Origin: a virus
Lineage: Duplodnaviria > Heunggongvirae > Uroviricota > Caudoviricetes
Virus record (IMG/VR): IMGVR_UViG_2740892489_000001
DNA: 49,169 nt
Reading direction: 5' to 3' (one strand)
This document shows, piece by piece, positions 11,292 to 24,486 of the stretch. The first letter of the stretch is position 1. Every line of letters begins with the position of its first letter. The notes under the pieces are model-generated. The model had not been told where the DNA came from, ran no database searches, and saw nothing but the letters and a program-made list of their open reading frames with translations. A program made the position numbers and the translations under genes.

Positions 11292-11307
11292 TTCTAGGGG
11301 AGGGCTT

Positions 11308-11731
11308 ATGGCAAAAGTATTAACACAGGAAGAGCGAGAAAAAAATTAAAGGGCAGATTGTTGATCTCGTACGCCAGAGTGAGCGAGAGACGTTACGACA
11401 ACTGGAAGCTAAAACAGGGGCAACCAGATATCTGATAAGTATTCTCGCCAAAGAGCTGGTTTCGAGTGGTTACGTATACAACTCTGGCTACGGGTTATTC
11501 CCGTCTGAGCAGGCACGTAAAGACTGGCAAAACGCCAGCAAAAAACTCTCGAGTGCAAAGTCGAAGGAACCGGTTATGGTTGATCCTGACCTTATCTGCT
11601 CGTTATCTGACGGAGAAATACGTCGTTACGACAGGCGTCATAATATAATTTGTAGTGAGTGCCGTAAAAGAGAAGTTATGCAGCGTGTACTGGCGTTTTA
11701 TCGGGGAAACTTTCAAGAGGTGCTGTTGTGA
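11308..11731 (+). CDS. Hypothetical protein; frame broken at A7 run 11339-11345
   Basis: ATG with GGGGAGGG Shine-Dalgarno; 13 codons then stop; removing one A gives a continuous 140-aa frame ending with CSLSDGE...CSEC. Confidence 0.4.
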
Positions 11732-11891
11732 GCCAAATTAATAATCGGAACTTGGTGAAGTGAAAGAGAAAGCATAACCCAAATCTGAATAATTAAATTC
11801 AGCACTGTGAATAAAATAGAGTCCTTAACCGGAGGAATTCCTGCACTCTCAAATCATCAGGAGGCCGCCCGAAAAGGCGGTGGAGATAATA

Positions 11892-12410
11892 ATGGAAATA
11901 ACTAAAGAACGATTATTGGAAATAGCAAATCTTAGTGATGGGGCATTAAGTGATGGGAGAATTATTTCTCCTGATGCTTATGAATCAGTTACAAGTATAG
12001 AAATAATAACGATGGCTAGGATGCTTCTTGCGCGATTCAAAAAAGAATATAAAAAACAGGTAGATAGCAATGCTAATATATATGATATTTTGGACGGTTG
12101 GGGAGCCTGGGCTGTAGCTGAAAATAGTTCTATTGATTGGCAGGAAATAGCTGATAAATATAAAAATGTTGTTCCTCATGGTAAAAAATCACGTCGTCAG
12201 TGCAGCAATGATGAAGGGGGTATAATTGATACCTGCATGTTGAGGCTTAAACAATATAAGATAGATGACTATGAGTTAATTATCGCTCATTTTGTTATGG
12301 GAGTTTCATTGCGTTGTTTAGCTAAGATAAACGAATGTTCAGATGGTAAAATAAGGAAAAAAATGCAAATGGCAATGGGATTTATTGCAGGTTGTATCTA
12401 TTACCGTTGA
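11892..12410 (+). CDS. Q-antiterminator-like protein (QuuD/Q-933W type) with N-terminal extension; AT-rich
   Basis: DGWGAWA...KSRRQC...IIDTCMLRLK...FVMGVSLRCL...CSDGKIRKKMQ resembles the Q family signature as recalled; GGAG 6 nt before ATG 11892. Confidence 0.55.
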   Translation: MEITKERLLEIANLSDGALSDGRIISPDAYESVTSIEIITMARMLLARFKKEYKKQVDSNANIYDILDGWGAWAVAENSSIDWQEIADKYKNVVPHGKKSRRQCSNDEGGIIDTCMLRLKQYKIDDYELIIAHFVMGVSLRCLAKINECSDGKIRKKMQMAMGFIAGCIYYR

Positions 12411-12416
12411 TTTTTT

Positions 12417-12437
12417 AAGGCGAGTTTCTCTCGCCTT
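12417..12437. other. Perfect 8-bp stem-loop between convergent genes (possible terminator)
   Basis: AAGGCGAG-TTTCT-CTCGCCTT, T6 on the 5' side only; not a canonical hairpin-plus-U-tract in either direction. Confidence 0.4.
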
Positions 12438-12440
12438 AAA

Positions 12441-13924
12441 TTAACTACAGTAACTATTGATTAAGTGAGAACTGAGCCAAGAGGTAATTGCATTCGTAGC
12501 ATGTTCATCAAGCATTGAGAATCCTAATATGATCATTATAAATGAAATCAGCAAAGTCAGAATCACAACGAATGTGGCTATAATCTGATAAGCTTTGTAT
12601 GCTTCTCTTAATGGTGTGACTGCAAGATTCTCATAGTCAGTATCATCAAGAAAACCATATAGTTTATCTCTCCAGACTAGCCTAGTATTATCAAGTATCT
12701 TAAAGTAATTTTTATTTATGAAGAGAGTTGTAACCTGAGATATAAAAATATATATAGATAACGCGAAGAACATATATGGGAATATGTTATTGGTTATATT
12801 AATCTTTGATGCGTCTAGCGCATATTTTATTGCAAATAGACTTATAACCAGAGCCAGATCTTTCCAAAGAGCGGATGTGATGTCTTTAGACTGACTTATT
12901 ATTTTTTGCGTGTCTTCAGCTAAGGTTTTCCTTAGATCGGACAGAGATTTAATAGTCTCTCTGCTGCTAGCGCGAATGTGGGCCTTATATAGTAATTTTG
13001 CTGACTCAAAGGCCATAGGGAGTTTTTTTTGGTAAACCCTCACAGAAGGATACATACTCTGGCCATTCTCGTGCTAACTCACTTGTGAAGAAAGTATGTT
13101 TGAGTTCAATCTCATTGCCCTCAATAAAGATCCAGTTTATTACAGTTTGTAAAACTGAATAGTCGGAAAGCAGAATGTCTGGATCTCCATAAATTAATTT
13201 TTTTGGTGGCTTTCCAGTTAAACAAATTGATTTCTTTTCATCTGCTAATAATTCATTAACGAGAGTGCGACAAAGCATATTGCAGGAAACTTGTAACCAT
13301 TTTTTGAAAAAGTTGTCCTCTGCCTCAGGCATTTTATAAAGTACCCAAGGAGCTATATCAGATGCAGGCATGAACTCACTAGAATAGAATTTAACGTAGC
13401 TCTGTAAATTGATTGAAGTTCGTACGGTTTCATTAGATTCAATTTTTTTCTGGAGCATGGTTCCATGGCTCAACAGAATATCCTAAAGTTTCAAATCCAT
13501 GTTTCAAACCGAGAATATTCACTTTATTGGTTATTGATACTAAATCATCATTGTGTAGAAAAACATTCCACCCTTCGAGCGTAAAAATATACCTGTTATT
13601 TTCGAATGCAATGCATTTTAGCGTAATGTTAAGTTTATCACCTTCACTGCATGACGATGGTTTTACTTCATCATTACAGTCATCTTTAACAGTAATTTCA
13701 ATCCAATTTGGTACGTTTTCGTAAACGTACTGCCAAAGAATGAGTGCATCTTTGTCCATTTTGGCAGAAATTAGAACGCGCGCAGAATCATTTTTTATTG
13801 ATTCTGATGCCAAAAATTCAGGGTCTTTCCTTGACGCCTGTATAGACTCATCGATTTTTTGAAGTATCGATGTCATCAGTAATAATCCTCGCAGTAGTAA
13901 CAATAATTTGTTTTCGCCCATCAT
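12441..13924 (-). CDS. Hypothetical protein with multi-pass membrane C-terminus; three track ORFs joined across homopolymer indels
   Basis: ORFs 13439..13924, 13006..13473 and 12441..13055 become one frame if T7 13443-13449 and T8 13023-13030 are each one base shorter; hydrophobic helices in last ~200 aa. Confidence 0.5.
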
Positions 13925-14907
13925 CTAAGTTTCTTATTTCTGGACGGTCATCTTCATTATAACTAATTACTACACTTTCTGCAGTTTCAATTTTTCGTCT
14001 TGGTGGTTTATGAATGCCATCTGCTTTTATAGTAAAGGATTCGCCTTCAATACCAGCATTTTTTGTTTGAGTTTTGAATGTGTTGAGAATTGGTGATTTT
14101 TCATCTAACGGCCCAAAAATGCTGGTCAATAACGGAGAAGCATCTTCAGGATTATATTCGAAATCAGCTCTGCTTAAAACTTCATATATTTTATTTACGC
14201 CGCTTTTTTGAATTGACTCTGGCAATAATTCTTTATGCCTTTTGAAGGTTATTTTCAGCGCATCAATAAGCTTATTGCAAAGTTCAATTTCAGAGTTGAC
14301 TCTTTTAACATTTAAGAAGCCTTTAAAATATCCTGAAATATTGGTTCTTTTACTCCTGTCTTTTACAATAACTTTCCCGCCTTTCCCACTTGGATCAAGT
14401 TGAATTAACGCTATTTTTTTGCATTGCCTCAGCTTTTTTTACGAAAGTTTCATGAAATCTTTCTAAAGTAGGCATTTGTTCTTCAGATAACTTTTCGTCA
14501 AGAACATAACGAACCACATCTTCATTATCGTATTTTATAATTGCATAGAATTTTTCCTTATCTGAAACCAATTCAAATAAGAAAAAGCATCCCATACTCG
14601 TGTTACCGCTAGAATGGTGTGACTGAAAATCACTGGCCAGTAGCTTCGATTGTTCTGTAAAACAATTAGCTTCAGCATCTGCTTTATCTCTAATGATACG
14701 CAGGATTCTTTCGGTATTTGAATTCTCCAGAAAAGTGAAAAGATTTCCTTTCAGTGAAGATTTGATACGTTCAAGAAAAAAATCCACATGCTGAACTGGT
14801 TTTATTTCTTTGAGAAGTGTCGGTGCTTCAAGATTCTTACCTACAACGTGAAAGATCATTTTATTAATGACTAAATTTTGTACGTCTTGTTCAGAAAGGA
14901 AACTCAT
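13848..14907 (-). CDS. NdpA/YejK-like (nucleoid-associated protein family) candidate; two track ORFs joined
   Basis: ORFs 14395..14907 and 13848..14225 fuse if T7 14414-14420 or 14434-14440 is one base shorter; motifs MIFHVV, GCFFLFELV...YAIIKYD, IQLDPSGKGGKVIVKDRSK recall the YejK family; GGAG before start. Confidence 0.45.
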
Positions 14908-14948
14908 CCTGACTCCATAATCAAGCAGATTAGAACTATGACTAGTCT

Positions 14949-14977
14949 AGTATATGCATCTTTTGGTGCGTACGCAA
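14949..14977 (-). promoter_or_regulatory. Candidate sigma70 promoter for the minus-strand island genes
   Basis: On minus strand TTGCGT-17 nt-TATACT, about 50 nt upstream of start 14907. Confidence 0.35.
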
Positions 14978-14999
14978 AAGTTCTTAAACTCAAAATGTT

Positions 15000-15236
15000 A
15001 TCGCGGATAGATCTTTGTAGAGTCAGTGATTGGCGCAGGTAGGTGGTAACAGCAGACAAATAGCTGCGGATACTTGAGGCTATCTGCCTCGGGCATGAAC
15101 ATCAAAGGCAGATAGAGAAAAGCCCCAGTTAACATTACGCATCCGGCAAGACGCTTAACATTAATCTGAGGCCAATTTCATGCTTTGCACATGTAGGTTA
15201 GCCTCTTACGTGCCGAAAGGCAAGGAGAAGCAGGCT
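15000..15236. promoter_or_regulatory. hok leader / putative sok antisense region
   Basis: Structured GC-rich leader typical of hok mRNAs upstream of the hok ATG. Confidence 0.4.
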
Positions 15237-15392
15237 ATGAAGCAGCAAAAGGCGATGTTAGTCGCCCTGATCGTCATCTGTTTAACCGTTATAGTGACGG
15301 TACTGGTAACGAGGAAAGACCTCTGCGAGGTACGAATCCGAACCGACCAGACGGAGGTCGCTGTCTTCACAGCTTACGAACTTGGGGAGTAA
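15237..15392 (+). CDS. hok: Hok/Gef-family type I toxin
   Basis: MKQQKAMLVALIVICLTVIVTVLVTRKDLCEVRIRTDQTEVAVFTAYELGE; in-frame upstream extension from 15180 (mok-like). Confidence 0.85.
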   Translation: MKQQKAMLVALIVICLTVIVTVLVTRKDLCEVRIRTDQTEVAVFTAYELGE

Positions 15393-15400
15393 GAGGACCG

Positions 15401-15418
15401 GCGGGGAGAAATCCCCGC
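15401..15418 (+). terminator. Stem-loop at hok 3' end
   Basis: GCGGGGA-GAAA-TCCCCGC immediately after hok stop. Confidence 0.45.
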
Positions 15419-15855
15419 AACCTCTGATGTATTATGCATCCTCAACGCAGCCACAGTTAACCTGATTGGCGGGTTTATTTCATCTGTAAATATATTTATA
15501 AAAATAATGCCCACGCACAGCATAAAACAAAAAGTATTACAGATAAAAAAGGAACGTAATGTGCAGATTTGTTGTTTTCCATATTTACTCACCTTAATAT
15601 GATTAACCCTGATAGGGTTGTTATTTCAGCGGTTTTCAAATGAGATATTATGGTGATCTGACAAATTTGCATAACATTAAAATTTAATTTGTTTAACCGC
15701 TTTTAATAATAAGCGTTGTTTGTATCCCAGCAATCTGTTGTTTGGTTTTTATTCCATTAAGGTGGGGGCTTTACACTGGAGCCAGTTTATTTATACTTCA
15801 TACGTCAGCCTGAACAACTGGCATCTGCTGCGCTGCGCCATCGAGAGATTGAGAA

Positions 15856-16455
15856 ATGGCGCATATACAACTGGTCAAACAAACCTCTTCCGGATTACTT
15901 CTCCCGGCGACGCCGGAGAGTTGTGATTTTCTGCATCAAATCAAAATAGGCGAGTGGATACACGCAGACTTTAAGCGTGTGCGTAACTACGCATTCCACA
16001 AGCGTTTTTTCAAACTCCTGCAACTGGGATTCGATTACTGGACTCCGGTCGGTGGGGCGATCACGCCTCGCGAACGAAAACTGCTGTCTGGTTTCGTTGA
16101 TTACCTGTGCGAATCAGTTGGTCGGGAACACACGCCAGCCCTGAGTGATGCCGCAGAGCAATATCTGAATACAGTTGCGACACGCAGAACCCGGGATACG
16201 GCATTGTTAAAGTCGTTTGAGGCTTTTCGCGAGTGGGTAACCATTCAGGCTGGATTTTACACCGAACATTTTTATCCGGACGGTAGCCATGGGCGTCGGG
16301 CGAAATCCATCGCTTTTGCGAATATGGACGAAACCGAGTTTCAGCAGGTTTATAAATCTGTTCTGAATGTGCTGTGGAACTGGATTCTGTTCCGTAAATT
16401 TTCCTCTCCGGAACAAGTCGAAAATGTGGCCGCGCAGCTGCTGGAGTTTGCGTAA
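15856..16455 (+). CDS. Nin-region phage protein (DUF1367-like by recollection)
   Basis: 199-aa ORF in the position of ydfU-type genes upstream of the late regulator. Confidence 0.45.
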   Translation: MAHIQLVKQTSSGLLLPATPESCDFLHQIKIGEWIHADFKRVRNYAFHKRFFKLLQLGFDYWTPVGGAITPRERKLLSGFVDYLCESVGREHTPALSDAAEQYLNTVATRRTRDTALLKSFEAFREWVTIQAGFYTEHFYPDGSHGRRAKSIAFANMDETEFQQVYKSVLNVLWNWILFRKFSSPEQVENVAAQLLEFA

Positions 16456-16745
16456 TGGTGGATTTACGTAAAGCGGCGCGGGGGCAGATGTGCACCGTCA
16501 GAATTCCTGGCTACTGCAATCACGATCCGGAAACGTCTGTGCTGGCGCATTACCGACTGGCGGGAACGTGCGGAACAGCGACAAAACCACACAATATGCA
16601 GGCGGCGATTGCCTGTAGCTCATGCCACGATCTAATCGACGGGCGGGTAAAAACCATCGATTACACCAAAGAAGAATTACGCCTGATGCATGCAGAAGGT
16701 GTTCTTCGCACACAAGAAATCTGGAGAAAGGAGGGATATTTATGA
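16455..16745 (+). CDS. YbcO-like Cys-rich protein (DUF1364 by recollection)
   Basis: CTVRIPGYCNHDPETSVLAHYRLAG...CSSCHD pattern, 96 aa. Confidence 0.5.
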   Translation: MVDLRKAARGQMCTVRIPGYCNHDPETSVLAHYRLAGTCGTATKPHNMQAAIACSSCHDLIDGRVKTIDYTKEELRLMHAEGVLRTQEIWRKEGYL

Positions 16746-16924
16746 TTTACCCAACGAATACAGGAAAAAGCGGAGAACACCTTCGTCTCACCACGCTGGA
16801 AAGTGTCTGGATTCAGGGAAAACTACGTATGTGGGGGCGCTGGTCGTATATTGGCGGCGGTAAGACGGGGAATATGTTCAACCAGTTGTTGGCCTCTAAA
16901 AAGCTGACAAAAAACGGCAATTAA
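16742..16924 (+). CDS. Hypothetical 60-aa protein
   Basis: GGAGGG Shine-Dalgarno before ATG 16742; overlaps upstream stop. Confidence 0.4.
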   Translation: MIYPTNTGKSGEHLRLTTLESVWIQGKLRMWGRWSYIGGGKTGNMFNQLLASKKLTKNGN

Positions 16925-16940
16925 CGAGGCGCTCCGGAGG

Positions 16941-17286
16941 ATGAAAAAAAGCAGGTCTGAACAAGTCTGAACTTGAGGCTTTTTTGCGGGATATGATTAA
17001 CGGTAAGCAAAAGAGCTGGCTGGCGCATTGTACTGATGCAGAGGCGTTATGTATTGATCGGGTCATAAGTGAGGTGCTGGCAGAGCATCCAGGATTGATT
17101 AGCGTCCTTCGGCAACGGTATGAGGGGCGGGGGATGACCAAACGCAAAATGGCTGAATTGCTAAATGATGCACACCCAGAGTGGTGTTTTAGCACATGCG
17201 AAAAGCGAATTGCTAATTGGTTGGCCGTTGCTGAGTATGCGCTATACATTCCCATGCGAGAATCATTCGCTCAAAAAACGGCTTGA
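16941..17286 (+). CDS. Hypothetical protein at the Q position upstream of the late region; frame broken at A7 run 16944-16950
   Basis: ATG 16941 with GGAGG Shine-Dalgarno gives 9 codons then stop; one fewer A yields a continuous 115-aa frame MKKAGLNKSELEAFLRDMINGK... Confidence 0.4.
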
Positions 17287-17532
17287 TTTTTTACGCATAA
17301 ACTGCTTCAATTTTGCTACGCTTCGCAAAGCTGTATCGCGAGGCGAATCAAGCGCAATTAAACTTTAATAGAACCCGCCATCGAGCGGGTTTTGTTGTTT
17401 CTGTGGTGTGATATCAGAAACGATATTTAATCATCGCCTTCAAAATAAATTTATTTATATGTTGTTGTATATATTTTAAGTGAAAGTGAATTATTCACAT
17501 AAAATAAAAACATATAAATAAATTTACATAAC

Positions 17533-17576
17533 TTGACGCAAACTGTTGTTGCGATTGGAATATTAAATCGTATCAT
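17533..17576 (+). promoter_or_regulatory. Candidate promoter upstream of tRNA genes
   Basis: TTGACG at 17533 after a very AT-rich upstream stretch (17440-17530); -10 element ambiguous. Confidence 0.3.
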
Positions 17577-17639
17577 CGAAAACGGTTCTGAGGGGGAACT
17601 CTTCTTTGAACGGTGATATCGCTCCCCTGAAGAACCAAT

Positions 17640-17715
<76 letters not shown>

Positions 17716-17718
17716 TAT

Positions 17719-17793
<75 letters not shown>

Positions 17794-18159
17794 GCATTTG
17801 AAACAAGCCTTATTGTATTACGGCACTGGCGTATTTTTTTTATTACGTGGGAGCAGGTTGTTTTGAAAAAGCATTCTGTTCTCTGGCTATGATTTGAGGC
17901 CGGGTGTAGCCTCAGTGCTGATTTTTTACGGCAGCAGAATGGTGCATTATCGGTGGAGATTTTGTATTTCCTGGCAGGGTCGGTGATGCATCATTCTGGT
18001 GTTGTAAATCGCACCACAGAGGCGCTCCTCAGTGCGAGGGTGGTTTAAAGAGTCGGTTTAGCGGGAAACCACAGTATCCATACAGCACGGAATACTTCGG
18101 GAGGCACCCGACGCCTCGGTTTAATAACAATTAAAAAATTCATCCCTTGCATTGACCAA

Positions 18160-18184
18160 CCGCCATATCTGGCGGTTTTTTTTT
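18160..18184 (+). terminator. Rho-independent terminator
   Basis: CCGCCA-TATC-TGGCGG followed by T9. Confidence 0.7.
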
Positions 18185-18574
18185 ATTCCTTTCTCAGGAC
18201 AAAAAAAAGACACGAGCATCCAGGAATACTCGTGGGACAACGTCCTTTAGATAGCAATTTGCGAGAGGGTGAAAAGTAGCGCGGTCGTCGGATTAAGACC
18301 GCGGGACAAAGTCCATGAAGAATAATAAGTATTGGCCCCCTTCTGGGGACATGTTCATACTACTAAGCTTCAGAAGTGGTTTAAATCATCAAATTAACCT
18401 TAATTTTCGATAAGTCTTATTTCATTTCTTTGCGCCACATCTGGCGCGCATCAAATAACGCCACGCAAAGGGCATCTGCGGATGCCGGTGCTTTTGACGG
18501 GGTGTTTTTTACGGGCCGCTGGTGGCCATTTTTTGTTTCCATTACACAGCGCCCGCATCTGCGAGGTGGGGGTT

Positions 18575-23386: not shown

Positions 23387-24486
23387 ATGAGCAGACCGGA
23401 CTGGGGGGCGTTGCAGCAGGAGTATATTGCTGAATACACCCGCTCCGGTATATCTCCGGTGGCATGGTGTGAAGCAAGGGGACTGAACTACGCAACAGCC
23501 CGTCGTTACATCAAAAAAAACTCCGAAAAATGCGCAGAAAGAAAATGCGCAAAACTGCGCAAAAAAAGTGCGCGAAAAAAAAACTGCGCAGACTGCGCAA
23601 AGGCAGAACGGAAAATCTCAGAAAAAAAAAGGCTGTATCCGATGCACTCCTGATTGAGGGGGACACGGAAGAAATTTCGTTCTGCCCCGATGAATTCGGT
23701 ATTTCTGACCAGCAGGCAAAATTCGCCATGTTGGTTGCTCAGGGGAAAAAGCCGACAGAGGCATACCGACTGGCTGGTTATGAGGGGCAAGGTGCGACAG
23801 CTAACAGCAACGCCAGCCGTATGCTTAGAAATGCCAGGGTTTATCGTGCTATCAGCTACTTCCGCAATCAGTACCAGAAACGCTATACCGCAGACCTGGA
23901 TTTACTGGTGAGCCAGTTGATGGCCATTGTCCAGGCCGACCCCAATCAGTTGGCACAATTTCGCCGTGTTAACTGCCGTTATTGCTGGGGCGAGAATCAT
24001 CTCTACCAGTGGCGTGATATTGCAGAATTCGATAAGGCTGCGGCACAGGCCTCCAGAGATGGTAAACCCGAGCCGGAATATGGAGGCCTCGGCTTTGTTG
24101 ATAACGCCATACCCAATCCGGATTGCCCGAAGTGCTGCGGTGAGGGAACGGGACAGCTTTATATGGCTGATACCACACTGCTTGATGGGGATGCGCGGCA
24201 ATTATATGCAGGGTCAAAGCTCGGAAAATACGGTGTTGAGATCCTGCTGGAGGATAAGGCTGCCGCCCGGCGTGAATTGTTGCGTTTGCTTTCTGCTGGC
24301 GGGGCATTATGTGCAGATAAACGGCTACAGGAACTGGAAATTGAACGGCGCAGAATAGAAAACCAGAAGCTGCGCAAAGAGATCGAAACGGTGGAGGATA
24401 ATGAACATCCCCAGCCTGTGGCGATCAATATTAATGTGGTTGATGCCAGATTAAGGAGTGATGAAGATGATCTCTCCGACGCTTAA
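23387..24486 (+). CDS. Terminase small subunit; frame ambiguous through A-run repeat region 23513-23630
   Basis: N-terminal ORF 23387..23653 and ORF 23530..24486 (AKFAMLVAQGKKPTEAYRLAGY...ANSNASRMLRNARV) separated only by A8/A7/A9 runs. Confidence 0.6.
23513..23630. repeat. Array of six TGCGC(A/G) hexamers interleaved with A6-A9 tracts
   Basis: TGCGCA at 23531, 23546, 23556, 23585, 23594 and TGCGCG at 23569; A runs at 23513, 23561, 23575, 23622. Confidence 0.5.

What the first reader, a model, noticed from the sequence alone, without database searches (positions are those of the whole stretch)
11892..12410. Q-antiterminator paralog with N-terminal extension, far from the late genes
The C-terminal ~110 aa carry a Q-type signature (WGAWA, SRRQC, IIDTCMLRLK, CSDGKIRKK) but the gene is AT-rich, has an extra ~60-aa N-terminal segment and sits about 6 kb upstream of the lysis cassette. 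It is convergent with the island genes and only 31 nt from their stop. A second, unrelated small gene (16941..17286) occupies the canonical Q position. Either the island carried its own Q-like regulator or this is a decoy or sensor of late transcription.
Basis: partly seen in the sequence, partly recalled or inferred. Interest (0 to 1): 0.6.

Follow-up and report, generated by a model that had tools for sequence, protein, structure and literature searches.

The report
Extra Q-like regulator heading cargo cassette
A Rac-like E. coli prophage carries, besides its normal late-gene switch, a second, diverged Q-type antiterminator gene with a 60-residue N-terminal add-on that always sits at the head of a swappable block of probable phage-exclusion genes and most likely regulates that block rather than the late genes.

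Summary
ORF 11892-12410 (172 aa) matches the Q21-type antiterminator family PF06530 over residues 62-169 (E 1.7e-33), has a conserved 61-residue N-terminal extension, lies in a 35% GC island, and ends 30 nt from convergent genes.

One detail is wrong. The "unrelated small gene" at 16941-17286 is the 3' part of a 180-aa DUF1133 Q-like gene. In this window it is split by two homopolymer indels, two of 28 such indels, probably assembly errors. That gene has a promoter-like site and a terminator right behind it, so it is the likely late switch.

The extended Q is a small, monophyletic lineage under purifying selection: 24 protein clusters in E. coli and Salmonella, found in 60 of 5426 complete E. 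coli genomes. It always sits between the ren-like gene and hok, and it is followed by one of at least five convergent cargo cassettes.

Each cassette ends with the invariant 13-mer TGCGTACGCAAAA. That 13-mer is the core of the late-promoter block of the related short Qs. The extended-Q cassettes keep the 13-mer and usually a leftward cargo promoter, but they have lost the rightward late-promoter hexamers, the conserved leader and its terminator.

Best reading (moderate confidence): a neofunctionalised Q paralog that binds the 13-mer and controls the cargo promoter. It is a new variant of a known kind.

The parts
11732..11891 (+). Conserved left flank and leader of the island. It contains the palindrome CTGAATAATTAAATTCAG (11785-11802), a GC-rich hairpin with a GAAA(A) loop (11863-11881) and the GGAG ribosome-binding site (11883-11886). 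It is backbone sequence, not cargo.
   Evidence: Aligned with two other extended-Q loci and with phage Rac 442/2 (MN652886), which carries different cargo. Similarity runs up to the hairpin and then stops. The hairpin sequence is unique in the window. The fold of the leader as a whole is not better than shuffles (z -0.8).
11892..12074 (+). N-terminal extension of the Q paralog (residues 1-61), predicted helical, with no known domain.
   Evidence: It lies outside the PF06530 match and gives no Pfam hit even at E<=10. It matches phrog_3323 (unknown function, E 3e-14). The 'stand-alone' proteins that resemble it are frameshifted alleles of the same gene. It is nearly invariant in 17 full-length homologues. 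dN/dS is 0.10-0.16 in the most divergent pairs. No deposited phage has it.
12075..12410 (+). Q21-family antiterminator core (residues 62-172 plus stop), with a sigma-region-4-like helix-turn-helix near the C-terminus.
   Evidence: PF06530 E 1.7e-33. The family profile hits the solved Q21 structures 6JNX/6P18 at E 2.1e-5. It is 55-63% identical to short Qs that sit in the canonical Q position. Family-invariant residues are retained.
12417..12440 (.). Inverted repeat AAGGCGAG-N6-CTCGCCTT between the two convergent stop codons. It has a T-run on the upstream side and A's downstream, so it does not look like an intrinsic terminator in either direction.
   Evidence: Read directly from the sequence. 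It is not reported by the terminator scan.
12441..13876 (-). Cargo gene 2: a 477-aa hypothetical protein with C-terminal hydrophobic segments. In the window it is split by homopolymer indels at 13023 and 13443.
   Evidence: It is intact in NZ_CP018957; the indel list is. There are no Pfam, PADLOC or NCBIfam hits. Kyte-Doolittle peaks lie at residues ~364-388 and ~425-460.
13848..14907 (-). Cargo gene 1: a 352-aa NA37-like (nucleoid-associated protein family) protein. In the window it is split by an indel at 14414.
   Evidence: PF04245 NA37 E 1.2e-12 on the intact copy. RefSeq names it 'nucleoid-associated protein'.
14949..14979 (-). Regulatory node at the right end of the cassette. It comprises the invariant 13-mer TGCGTACGCAAAA (14967-14979, + strand) and a leftward sigma-70-like promoter, TTGCGT (14977-14972) - 17 nt - TATACT (14954-14949). 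The promoter lies about 40 nt upstream of the cargo ATG at 14907.
   Evidence: The 13-mer occurs exactly once in the window. It is present in all five cargo types of extended-Q loci, with otherwise unrelated flanks. It is the core of the late-promoter block of short-Q loci. 93 of 96 evaluable IMG/VR loci with the 14-mer variant have a same-strand Q of this subfamily upstream. A leftward -10 sits at a fixed spacing in 12 of 17 short-Q loci (p about 1e-12).
15068..15392 (+). hok/sok toxin-antitoxin module. It forms the right-hand backbone border of the hotspot.
   Evidence: Rfam sok RF01794, 99.4 bits. A Hok/Gef CDS is annotated in relatives. Homology to many lambdoid phages resumes at about 15059.
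16742..17286 (+). The gene in the canonical Q position: DUF1133 family, Q-like. In the window it is broken by A insertions at 16909 and 16944.
   Evidence: It is annotated 'q; prophage antiterminator' in MN652886 and listed as 'Q antiterminator (HHPred)' in PMC8136144.
17283..17397 (+). Candidate late promoter TTGATT(17283-17288)-N17-TTCAAT(17306-17311), followed by a strong terminator-like hairpin (17366-17397 plus a T-run). Together they give the classical Q / PR' / tR' layout.
   Evidence: Sequence read; terminator scan. tRNA-Thr and tRNA-Gly and then the lysis genes follow.

Best explanation
ORF 11892-12410 encodes a diverged paralog of the Q21-type late antiterminator (PF06530) that has gained a 61-residue N-terminal module. 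I call it the extended Q; the ordinary 113-120-aa members of the same subfamily are the short Qs.

The extended Q is the fixed first gene of a swappable cassette that sits in the ren(DUF977)-hok hotspot of Rac/Qin-like lambdoid prophages. The cassette runs: extended Q (rightward), then two or three convergent cargo genes, then the invariant 13-mer TGCGTACGCAAAA. In this window the cargo is an NA37-like DNA-binding protein plus a membrane protein, which may be a Rex-like exclusion pair.

The cassette descends from the 'Q gene - convergent cargo - late promoter' module that the short Qs carry at the canonical Q position.

Proposed mechanism (inferred, not shown):
- The extended Q lies on the strand of the early rightward operon, downstream of the replication genes. 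I infer that it is transcribed with that operon when the prophage is induced.
- Its sigma-region-4-like helix-turn-helix binds the 13-mer, the family's probable Q-binding element. In the cassette that element coincides with the -35 of the leftward cargo promoter.
- Binding sets the activity of the cargo promoter. The most economical version is shut-off during the phage's own lytic growth, reinforced by head-on transcription between the convergent units.
- It does not serve as the late-gene switch. That role belongs to the DUF1133 Q-like gene at 16742-17286, which has its own promoter and terminator.

Shown: family membership, conservation, context, the 13-mer and its tie to this Q subfamily, loss of the rightward promoter block, and purifying selection.

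Inferred: DNA binding to the 13-mer, the direction of regulation, the timing of expression, and the role of the N-terminal module.
For: Family:
- PF06530 E 1.7e-33. PF06530 is the Q21 family (PMC9388147).
- The profile hits Q21 structures 6JNX/6P18 at E 2.1e-5. Q21 DNA-contact residues S93 and H95 align with the invariant S139 and the near-invariant R141.

Recurrent context:
- In every locus read, the extended Q follows the ren-like region and is convergent with cargo, then hok.
- The canonical Q in these loci is of three different types: DUF1133, the lambda type PF03589, and the Q82 type PF06323.
- There are five cargo types. Relatives of three of them occur behind short Qs at the canonical position.

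Cis element:
- The 13-mer is unique in the window.
- It is invariant in all nine distinct cassette junctions.
- It is the core of the conserved block motif-TAnnnT-TGtTAAGAGTgG-terminator behind short Qs.
- It is tied to this Q subfamily in 93 of 96 evaluable IMG/VR loci.
- It lies directly at the stop codon of more distant QuuD-like Qs.
- It is absent from the hotspot of Rac 442/2 and Evi, which lack such a Q.

Loss of the late-promoter function in the cassette:
- The rightward TAnnnT hexamers are present in 17/17 and 13/17 short-Q loci and in 0/9 extended-Q junctions.
- nhmmer aligns only the motif.
- The leftward TTGCGT-N17/18-TAnnnT promoter is kept in 4 of 5 cargo types.

Selection:
- The extended-Q cores form one clade in a neighbour-joining tree.
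- Core dN/dS is 0.12-0.51 at dS 0.45-1.4. The N-terminal extension has dN/dS 0.10-0.16 in the most divergent pairs.

The canonical switch exists: DUF1133 with TTGATT-N17-TTCAAT and a terminator.
Against: - No experiment or structure supports binding of the extended Q to the 13-mer. The identification of the 13-mer as the Q-binding element rests on position and co-occurrence only. Q21 itself uses a different site, a direct repeat of TGAGCA.
- The 13-mer could be conserved partly because it supplies the -35 of the cargo promoter.
- The extended-Q clade keeps nearly all family-invariant residues outside the helix-turn-helix, for example PHGKK.R.QC..DEG..ID, which aligns with the part of Q21 that forms the RNA-exit 'nozzle'. 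This is more than a plain repressor would need and favours retained contact with RNA polymerase.
- One cargo type (NA37 380 aa + 406-410 aa) lacks a good leftward -10.
- Frameshifted alleles exist in some strains, so the gene is dispensable for keeping the prophage.
- Both structure predictions were of low confidence (pLDDT 51 and 56).
- The promoter scan of the region is at chance level.
Confidence: 0.42

Rival explanations
1. It is still a working antiterminator in a relay. The extended Q loads onto RNA polymerase at or near the 13-mer and makes rightward transcription resistant to termination. Early transcription interrupted by the convergent cassette can then pass the hok/sok terminators and reach the nin-like genes and the canonical Q.
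For: - All family-invariant residues are retained, including the segment that aligns with the nozzle-forming part of Q21.
- Terminator-like hairpins lie between hok and the next genes, at 15459-15475, 15604-15620, 15698-15715 and 15767-15783.
- The 13-mer sits exactly where the cassette ends and rightward backbone genes begin.
Against: - The rightward -10, the conserved TGtTAAGAGTgG element and the leader terminator are invariant features behind short Qs. They are missing from all nine extended-Q junctions, and the sequences right of the motif are unrelated between cargo types.
- Rac-like phages without the extended Q (Rac 442/2, Evi) have the same hok and nin-like genes and manage without it.
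Confidence: 0.2
2. It acts in trans on other phages. Its DNA-binding half resembles that of the short Qs, and the 13-mer is shared with their late promoters. The extended Q could therefore occupy the late promoter of a co-resident or superinfecting lambdoid phage with this Q type. It would either block that promoter (a dominant-negative 'anti-Q' exclusion factor) or fire it prematurely. The N-terminal module would be what changes the outcome.
For: - The same 13-mer core lies in the late-promoter block of many Enterobacterales phages, including Stx1a-converting phages.
- The putative recognition-helix residues (C149, D151, G152, R155, K156) are conserved between the extended and short clades.
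- The gene sits in a hotspot next to probable exclusion genes, with a weak RexB-like hit in one cargo.
- The N-terminal extension is under purifying selection.
Against: - No promoter for expression in the lysogen was identified.
- The convergent cargo transcription would be antisense to the gene.
- There is no hit in the PADLOC defence models.
- The idea does not explain why a copy of the 13-mer is kept inside every cassette.
Confidence: 0.15
3. It is a passenger with no function of its own. A copy of Q was carried into the ren-hok hotspot together with cargo by recombination, fused in frame to a short upstream ORF, and now persists as a homology arm for cassette exchange.
For: - The gene is mosaic. 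The 5' part diverges much less (dS 0.05-0.49) than the core (dS 0.45-1.4), with breakpoints inside the core. This is as expected if its 3' half travels with the cargo.
- Frameshifted alleles occur in several strains.
Against: - dN/dS is well below 1 in both parts at substantial dS.
- The extended cores form their own deep clade rather than being scattered among short Qs, so they diversified while already in this context.
- The family invariants are kept.
- The ORF is annotated as an intact CDS in nearly all of the 40 listed records among 60 matching E. coli genomes.
Confidence: 0.1
4. In this particular prophage the canonical Q is truly broken and 11892-12410 is the only functional Q, driving the late genes.
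For: In the window the DUF1133 gene is interrupted at 16909 and 16944.
Against: - The interruptions are two of 28 homopolymer indels spread over all kinds of genes, relative to a 99.87%-identical genome in which the gene is intact.
- The family's 13-mer is absent from the late-promoter region 17283-17400.
- The extended Q co-occurs with intact canonical Qs of three different families elsewhere.
Confidence: 0.03

Closest known systems
Q21-family late antiterminators (Pfam PF06530; phage 21 Q, PDB 6JNX/6P18; DLP12 QuuD-like proteins)
   Same: - Clear sequence membership over residues 62-169.
- Conserved WGAW, QC..DEG..ID and SLR...C.DG..RK motifs.
- Sigma-region-4-like helix-turn-helix.
- A cognate-looking DNA element is kept nearby.
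   Different: - It has a 61-residue N-terminal extension found in no characterised Q and in no deposited phage.
- It lies about 6 kb upstream of the lysis genes, at the start of the nin-like region.
- It is followed by convergent genes, not by a late promoter.
- The pause/leader/terminator block is missing.
- It co-exists with another Q in the canonical place.
- AGF is replaced by DKY at residues 88-90, a fixed difference from the short Qs, and its core evolves faster (median identity within the clade 68% versus 83%).
Short Qs of the same subfamily at the canonical position (Stx1a-converting phages, mEp460, and Pantoea/Enterobacter/Klebsiella prophages)
   Same: - 55-63% identical cores.
- The same layout: Q gene, convergent cargo of related families, then the GCGTACGCAAAA motif with a leftward promoter.
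   Different: - They lack the N-terminal extension.
- Their motif is followed by conserved rightward TAnnnT hexamers, a TGtTAAGAGTgG element, a short leader and a terminator in front of the lysis or stx genes.
- They are the only Q of their phage.
DUF1133 / phrog_753 Q-like proteins (the gene at 16742-17286)
   Same: Distantly related to PF06530 (weak profile hits), and annotated as the prophage antiterminator.
   Different: It is a different family. It occupies the canonical position with its own promoter-terminator pair and has no 13-mer.
Regulators that travel with diverse defence systems (e.g. WYL-domain BrxR/CapW; from general knowledge, not tested here)
   Same: One conserved DNA-binding regulator gene sits next to interchangeable cargo systems.
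   Different: There is no homology (only PF06530 is detected). The regulator here derives from an antiterminator and is convergent with the cargo, not upstream of it.
Lambda RexA/RexB exclusion module (for the cargo, not for the Q)
   Same: - Two-gene layout: a DNA-binding protein of roughly 300-400 aa plus a membrane protein, carried by a prophage.
- One cargo partner gives a weak RexB hit (E 0.0015).
- RexA is reported to share its fold with the DNA-binding protein RdgC (PMC11077077).
   Different: No significant sequence match to RexA or RexB for the window's own cargo. The location and regulation differ. The resemblance is a lead only.

Membership tests
Q21-family antiterminator (PF06530) | Sequence match to the family model above the curated threshold | tested here: met
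   115.5 bits against a cut-off of 26, E 1.7e-33, residues 62-169 on profile positions 3-110 of 118. phrog_79 gives E 3.4e-33.
Q21-family antiterminator (PF06530) | Homology to the structurally solved member (Q21), including DNA-contact positions of the helix-turn-helix | tested here: inconclusive
   The profile hits 6JNX/6P18 at E 2.1e-5 over residues 66-145, aligned to Q21 residues 19-99. Q21 S93 and H95 align with S139 and R141. The second (recognition) helix is outside the aligned stretch.
Q21-family antiterminator (PF06530) | Q21-like three-dimensional fold | tested here: inconclusive
   The two AlphaFold2 models have mean pLDDT 51 and 56. In Foldseek against the PDB, Q21 chains appear among the top hits (ranks 1 and 5), but only at E>1.
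Q21-family antiterminator (PF06530) | Gene lies immediately upstream of the late transcription unit (late promoter, pause site, terminator, lysis genes) | tested here: not met
   It is followed after 30 nt by convergent genes. The lysis genes are 6.2 kb away. Another Q-like gene holds the canonical place.
Q21-family antiterminator (PF06530) | Cognate cis site: a Q-binding element embedded in a promoter, with a -10-like pause element and a downstream terminator | tested here: not met
   The subfamily's 13-mer core is present at 14967-14979. The rightward hexamers (17/17 and 13/17 in short-Q loci), the conserved leader and the terminator are absent in 9/9 extended-Q junctions.
Q21-family antiterminator (PF06530) | Antitermination activity on RNA polymerase | not testable with these tools
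   This needs in vitro transcription or reporter assays.
Late-gene switch of this prophage | A Q-like gene directly followed by a promoter, a short leader and a terminator ahead of the lysis genes | tested here: not met
   This layout is met by the DUF1133 gene 16742-17286, with TTGATT-N17-TTCAAT and the hairpin 17366-17397. It is not met by 11892-12410.
Known anti-phage defence system components (PADLOC-DB v2) | Match to a defence-protein model | tested here: not met
   There are no hits for the extended Q or for the window's two cargo proteins. The other cargo types give only weak hits: RexB at 0.0015, PDC-M18B at 0.0066 and PDC-S54 at 0.0014.
NA37 nucleoid-associated protein family (cargo gene 1) | Match to PF04245 above threshold | tested here: met
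   48.3 bits against a cut-off of 24.6, E 1.2e-12, on the intact 352-aa copy. The fragment in the window scored below the cut-off.

The most novel reading that the evidence does not exclude
The extended Q is a re-purposed antiterminator that works as the control element of a mobile exclusion cassette. In one version it forms a two-state toggle with the convergent cargo promoter: cargo on and Q off in the lysogen, the reverse in lytic growth. In the other it is an 'anti-Q' that occupies the shared 13-mer in the late promoters of rival lambdoid phages, including Stx1a-type phages, and sabotages their late transcription. The N-terminal module would convert a loader of RNA polymerase into a blocker or sensor.
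Probability: 0.2. Interest if true: 0.75.

Novelty: new variant of a known kind. Interest (0 to 1): 0.5.

Why it matters
Q proteins are the textbook late-gene switch, one per lambdoid phage, placed right before the late promoter. Here a Q-family lineage has left that job. It gained a new N-terminal module, stayed under selection, and became the constant head of an interchangeable cargo cassette.

If it regulates the cassette through the family's DNA element, it would show how a phage ties accessory (probably anti-phage) genes to its own developmental clock. It would also show an antiterminator evolving into a different kind of regulator.

The side result also matters. In this Q subfamily the space between the Q gene and its late promoter is a general cargo hotspot with its own leftward promoter. 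This includes Stx1a-converting phages, where that promoter block lies upstream of stx1. The hotspot gives a defined place to look for new prophage-borne exclusion systems.

Tried and rejected
- **Structure.** Two AlphaFold2 runs, with 23 and 89 aligned sequences, gave mean pLDDT 51 and 56. Foldseek against the PDB gave nothing below E=1. No structural conclusion is drawn, least of all for the N-terminal module.
- **Origin of the N-terminal module.** I looked for it as a separate gene. The only 'stand-alone' relatives are frameshifted alleles of the same gene. There is no Pfam hit at E<=10 and no tblastn hit in deposited phages.
- **Defence annotation.** PADLOC and NCBIfam gave nothing for the extended Q or its cargo. 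The term DUF6731 occurs in no paper of the library.
- **Late-promoter block in the window.** I built an nhmmer profile of the short-Q late-promoter block and searched the window and two extended-Q loci. Only the motif itself aligns. I therefore rejected the idea that a whole Q-cargo-late-promoter unit is still functional here.
- **Palindrome idea.** I considered that the T variant of the motif (TGCGTACGCA, a perfect palindrome) is specific to extended-Q loci and points to dimer binding. Rejected: the T variants also occur behind short and distant Qs.
- **Nut-site idea.** I considered the GAAA(A)-loop hairpin at 11863-11881, with a boxA-like CACTCTCA upstream, as a nut-like site. No second copy exists in the window and the leader fold is not better than shuffles. 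It is left as an aside.
- **Promoter scan.** The generic promoter scan of 11300-18500 found 18 sites against 18.0 expected from shuffles. It is not used as evidence.
- **DUF1133 comparison.** hhalign of the Q alignment against the single DUF1133 sequence was weak (E 0.072). The link to Q families rests on the hmmscan hits instead.
- **Representative genomes.** The scan of genome contigs (one genome per species) found only short Qs.
Full report
**What is in the window**

The window starts at the integrase of a Rac-like lambdoid prophage inserted next to ttcA. Its first 27.4 kb are 99.87% identical to E. coli Ecol_316, NZ_CP018957.

The two sequences differ by 8 substitutions and 28 single-base indels. 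Nearly all of the indels lie in A/T homopolymer runs of about six bases or more. That pattern points to an error-prone assembly rather than to biology.

The indels split several genes that are intact in the relative:
- the DUF977 ren-like gene (indel at 11339);
- both island cargo genes (13023, 13443, 14414);
- the DUF1133 gene (16909, 16944).

**Checking the observation**

ORF 11892-12410 is not affected by the indels. It has the same length as the RefSeq CDS WP_001586995.1, 'antiterminator Q family protein'.

- Residues 62-169 match Pfam PF06530 at E 1.7e-33, 115.5 bits against a cut-off of 26. They also match phrog_79 'anti-termination protein Q-like'.
- PF06530 is the family of phage 21 Q, according to Yin, Kaelber and Ebright (PMC9388147).
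- A profile of the homologues hits the solved Q21 chains 6JNX/6P18 at E 2.1e-5.
- The island is at 32-39% GC against about 50% on either side.
- The gap to the convergent stop codon is 30 nt.
- The lysis genes begin about 6.2 kb downstream.

So the core observation is confirmed.

One part is wrong. 16941-17286 is not a small unrelated gene. It is the 3' portion of a 180-aa DUF1133 gene. That gene is Q-like by phrog_753 (E 1e-79) and has weak hits to the Q21-type profiles. It is annotated 'q; prophage antiterminator' in phage Rac 442/2 and listed as 'Q antiterminator (HHPred)' in a survey of Stx phages (PMC8136144). It is followed by TTGATT-N17-TTCAAT and a strong terminator-like hairpin at 17366-17397. 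This is the classical Q / late promoter / terminator layout.

**The protein lineage**

A search of 5.8 billion proteins finds 24 clusters of full-length relatives (161-185 aa, 65-99% identical), all from E. coli or Salmonella. I call these the extended Qs. It also finds more than a thousand short relatives. The nearest short Qs listed are mostly 113-120 aa, lack the first ~61 residues and are 55-63% identical over the core.

- The extension is nearly invariant among the full-length proteins.
- It has no Pfam match.
- It occurs in no deposited phage genome.
- The short proteins that resemble it are frameshifted alleles of the same gene.
- 60 of 5426 complete E. coli genomes carry it, one copy each.

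On the core region the extended proteins form a single clade, separate from the short Qs, in a midpoint-rooted neighbour-joining tree. The one apparent exception in that tree is a full-length protein with an earlier annotated start.

Pairwise Nei-Gojobori estimates give the following:
- Core: dN/dS 0.12-0.51 at dS 0.45-1.4.
- Extension: dN/dS 0.10-0.16 in the most divergent pairs.

The gene has therefore been maintained by selection in its present form.

It is also mosaic. The 5' part is much less diverged than the core, and breakpoints lie inside the core.

Family-invariant residues are kept. These include the stretch PHGKK.R.QC..DEG..ID, which aligns with the nozzle-forming part of Q21, and SLR...C.DG..RK in the helix-turn-helix. 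There is a fixed AGF-to-DKY change, and overall conservation is lower than among the short Qs.

**The context is constant**

In every locus read, the extended Q follows the ren-like DUF977 region and faces two or three convergent genes. The hok/sok module comes next.

Five cargo sets were seen:
- NA37-like 352 aa + 477 aa (this window);
- NA37 380 aa + 406-410 aa;
- DUF6731 304 aa + 159 aa;
- 363 + 142 + 197 aa;
- 309 + 182 aa.

The canonical Q further downstream in these loci is DUF1133, lambda-type (PF03589) or Q82-type (PF06323). The extended Q is therefore always an additional Q and is independent of the phage's late switch.

In Rac 442/2 and in phage Evi the same hotspot holds other genes and no such Q. 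The left flank, up to a hairpin just before the ATG, is shared with Rac 442/2, so the cassette begins at the Q gene.

**Where the cassette comes from**

The short Qs sit at the canonical position. Examples are Stx1a-converting phages, mEp460, and Pantoea, Enterobacter, Klebsiella and Shigella prophages. They too are normally followed by convergent cargo.

Three of the five extended-Q cargo sets have relatives behind short Qs, at 23-74% identity.

Behind the cargo, all short-Q loci share a conserved block: CTAACGCGTACGCAAAA, then TAnnnT hexamers 6 and 11 nt after the GCGTACGC core (13/17 and 17/17 loci), then TGtTAAGAGTgG, a short leader and a hairpin with a T-run. This has the anatomy of a late promoter with its Q-binding element, pause element and terminator. 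In Q21 the binding element lies between the -35 and -10 and the pause element lies in the initial transcribed region (PMC6606751). Assigning these roles here is inference.

- Of 96 evaluable IMG/VR loci holding ACGCGTACGCAAAA, 93 have a same-strand Q of this subfamily 45-3575 bp upstream, median 1568 bp.
- In more distant QuuD-like Qs the motif lies right at the stop codon, followed by TATGGT/TAGTGT and a terminator.

So the motif is this Q subfamily's own cis element. The gap between the Q gene and the motif is a general cargo hotspot.

On the other strand the motif supplies TTGCGT. A TAnnnT hexamer lies exactly 17 nt further left in 12 of 17 short-Q loci (background frequency 0.05, p about 1e-12). 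This makes a leftward promoter for the cargo.

**What the extended-Q cassettes keep and what they lost**

All nine distinct junctions keep TGCGTACGCAAAA, 55-82 nt from the cargo start codon in the loci measured, within otherwise unrelated sequence. The 13-mer occurs exactly once in the 49-kb window, at 14967-14979.

Four of the five cargo types keep the leftward promoter. In the window it is TTGCGT-N17-TATACT at 14977-14949.

None keeps the rightward hexamers, the TGtTAAGAGTgG element or the leader terminator. A profile of the block aligns only to the motif. Two cargo types still show decayed remnants (ACTATC...) of the rightward part.

The cassette therefore looks like a transplanted 'Q - cargo - late promoter' module. 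In it the late-promoter function has decayed, while the motif, the cargo promoter and the Q gene have been kept.

**How it most likely works**

Shown: family, conservation, context, the cis element and its link to the subfamily, loss of the rightward block, and presence of a separate canonical Q with its own promoter and terminator.

Inferred:
- The extended Q binds the 13-mer through its sigma-region-4-like helix-turn-helix.
- It lies on the strand of the early rightward operon, downstream of the replication genes, so I infer that it is made after induction.
- Because the 13-mer overlaps the -35 of the cargo promoter, binding sets cargo expression. The simplest version is shut-off during the phage's own lytic growth, helped by head-on transcription. 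No terminator separates the convergent units.
- The role of the N-terminal module is unknown.

I give this reading about 0.4.

The main rival (about 0.2) is that it is still an antiterminator that carries rightward transcription across the hok-distal terminators. The retained nozzle-region residues favour this. The missing pause/promoter block, and the Rac-like phages that do without it, speak against it.

A trans-acting 'anti-Q' or cross-talk role on other phages that share the motif is possible (about 0.15). A functionless passenger is unlikely given the selection signal (about 0.1). The idea that it is the only Q of this prophage rests on probable sequencing errors (about 0.03).

**The cargo**

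Cargo gene 1 is an NA37-family protein (E 1.2e-12 on the intact copy). Cargo gene 2 (477 aa) has C-terminal hydrophobic segments. PADLOC finds nothing for either.

One partner protein of another cargo type gives a weak RexB hit (E 0.0015). A DNA-binding protein paired with a membrane protein recalls lambda RexAB, and RexA is reported to share its fold with the DNA-binding protein RdgC (PMC11077077). This is a lead, not a result.

**Comparison and novelty**

By sequence this is a member of the Q21 family. By the other defining features of a late antiterminator it fails membership: it is not positioned before the late unit, and it lacks a full cognate promoter/pause/terminator site.

RefSeq already names it 'antiterminator Q family protein'. 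I found no paper describing the extended lineage, its fixed place at the head of a cargo cassette, or the Q-to-late-promoter gap as a cargo hotspot with its own promoter.

I file it as a new variant of a known kind, with interest 0.5.

Noticed in passing
window 775-25921 (28 sites; e.g. 11339, 13023, 13443, 14414, 16909, 16944, 23513-23622): The single-base indels relative to the 99.87%-identical genome NZ_CP018957 fall almost entirely in A/T homopolymer runs. They split many ORFs, including DUF977, both island cargo genes, DUF1133 and genes around 23.5 kb. This is probably assembly error, so gene calls in this window should not be read as pseudogenes.
   Followed up: yes
L013-L035, L016 (Stx1a phage LC567825), L017 (mEp460_4F5), IMG/VR loci L044-L163: In the short-Q subfamily the Q gene is almost never adjacent to its motif and late-promoter block. 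92 of 93 IMG/VR loci have 0.6-3.6 kb of mostly convergent cargo in between. A conserved leftward promoter (TTGCGT-N17-TAnnnT) shares the palindromic core GCGTACGC with the rightward block. In Stx1a-converting phages this block lies upstream of stx1A.
   Followed up: partly
window 12441-14907 (minus strand); L002 8531-9940; L040 7519-9669; L042 7536-9000: The cargo sets pair a 300-390-aa protein (NA37-like or DUF6731) with a smaller or membrane protein. One partner gives a weak RexB hit (E 0.0015). They may be Rex-like exclusion modules that current defence models do not recognise.
   Followed up: partly
window 11845-11881: A CACTCTCA sequence (boxA-like) is followed 12 nt later by a GC-rich hairpin with a GAAA(A) loop (boxB-like), just upstream of the island and conserved in Rac 442/2. 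It resembles a nut site, but no second copy was found in the window and the fold of the leader is not significant.
   Followed up: partly
L036 7001-7521; L037-L039 7001-7524: Some E. coli strains carry frameshifted alleles of the extended Q, annotated as two small ORFs. phrog_3323 ('unknown function') matches the N-terminal extension and may derive from such fragments.
   Followed up: partly
L006 9171-10399; hit H19 (NZ_CM146015): Insertion sequences interrupt the cargo in some genomes. An IS3-family element lies in the DUF6731 gene, and ISKpn26 lies in the island of strain YZ_2_2.
   Followed up: no
window 17640-17790: tRNA-Thr and tRNA-Gly genes lie between the canonical Q terminator and the lysis genes. 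This is the position where Stx phages carry tRNAs and toxin genes.
   Followed up: no
L040 13894-14200 (NZ_CP041429): In strain STEC367 a 'scabin-related ADP-ribosyltransferase' gene follows the DUF1133 Q, in the position of a late-promoter-driven moron.
   Followed up: no
L042 10336-13361 (NZ_CP134805): In one strain a type I restriction-modification methylase (HsdM) and specificity (HsdS) gene pair sits just after hok in the same prophage region. This suggests a second accessory-gene slot next to the extended-Q cassette.
   Followed up: no
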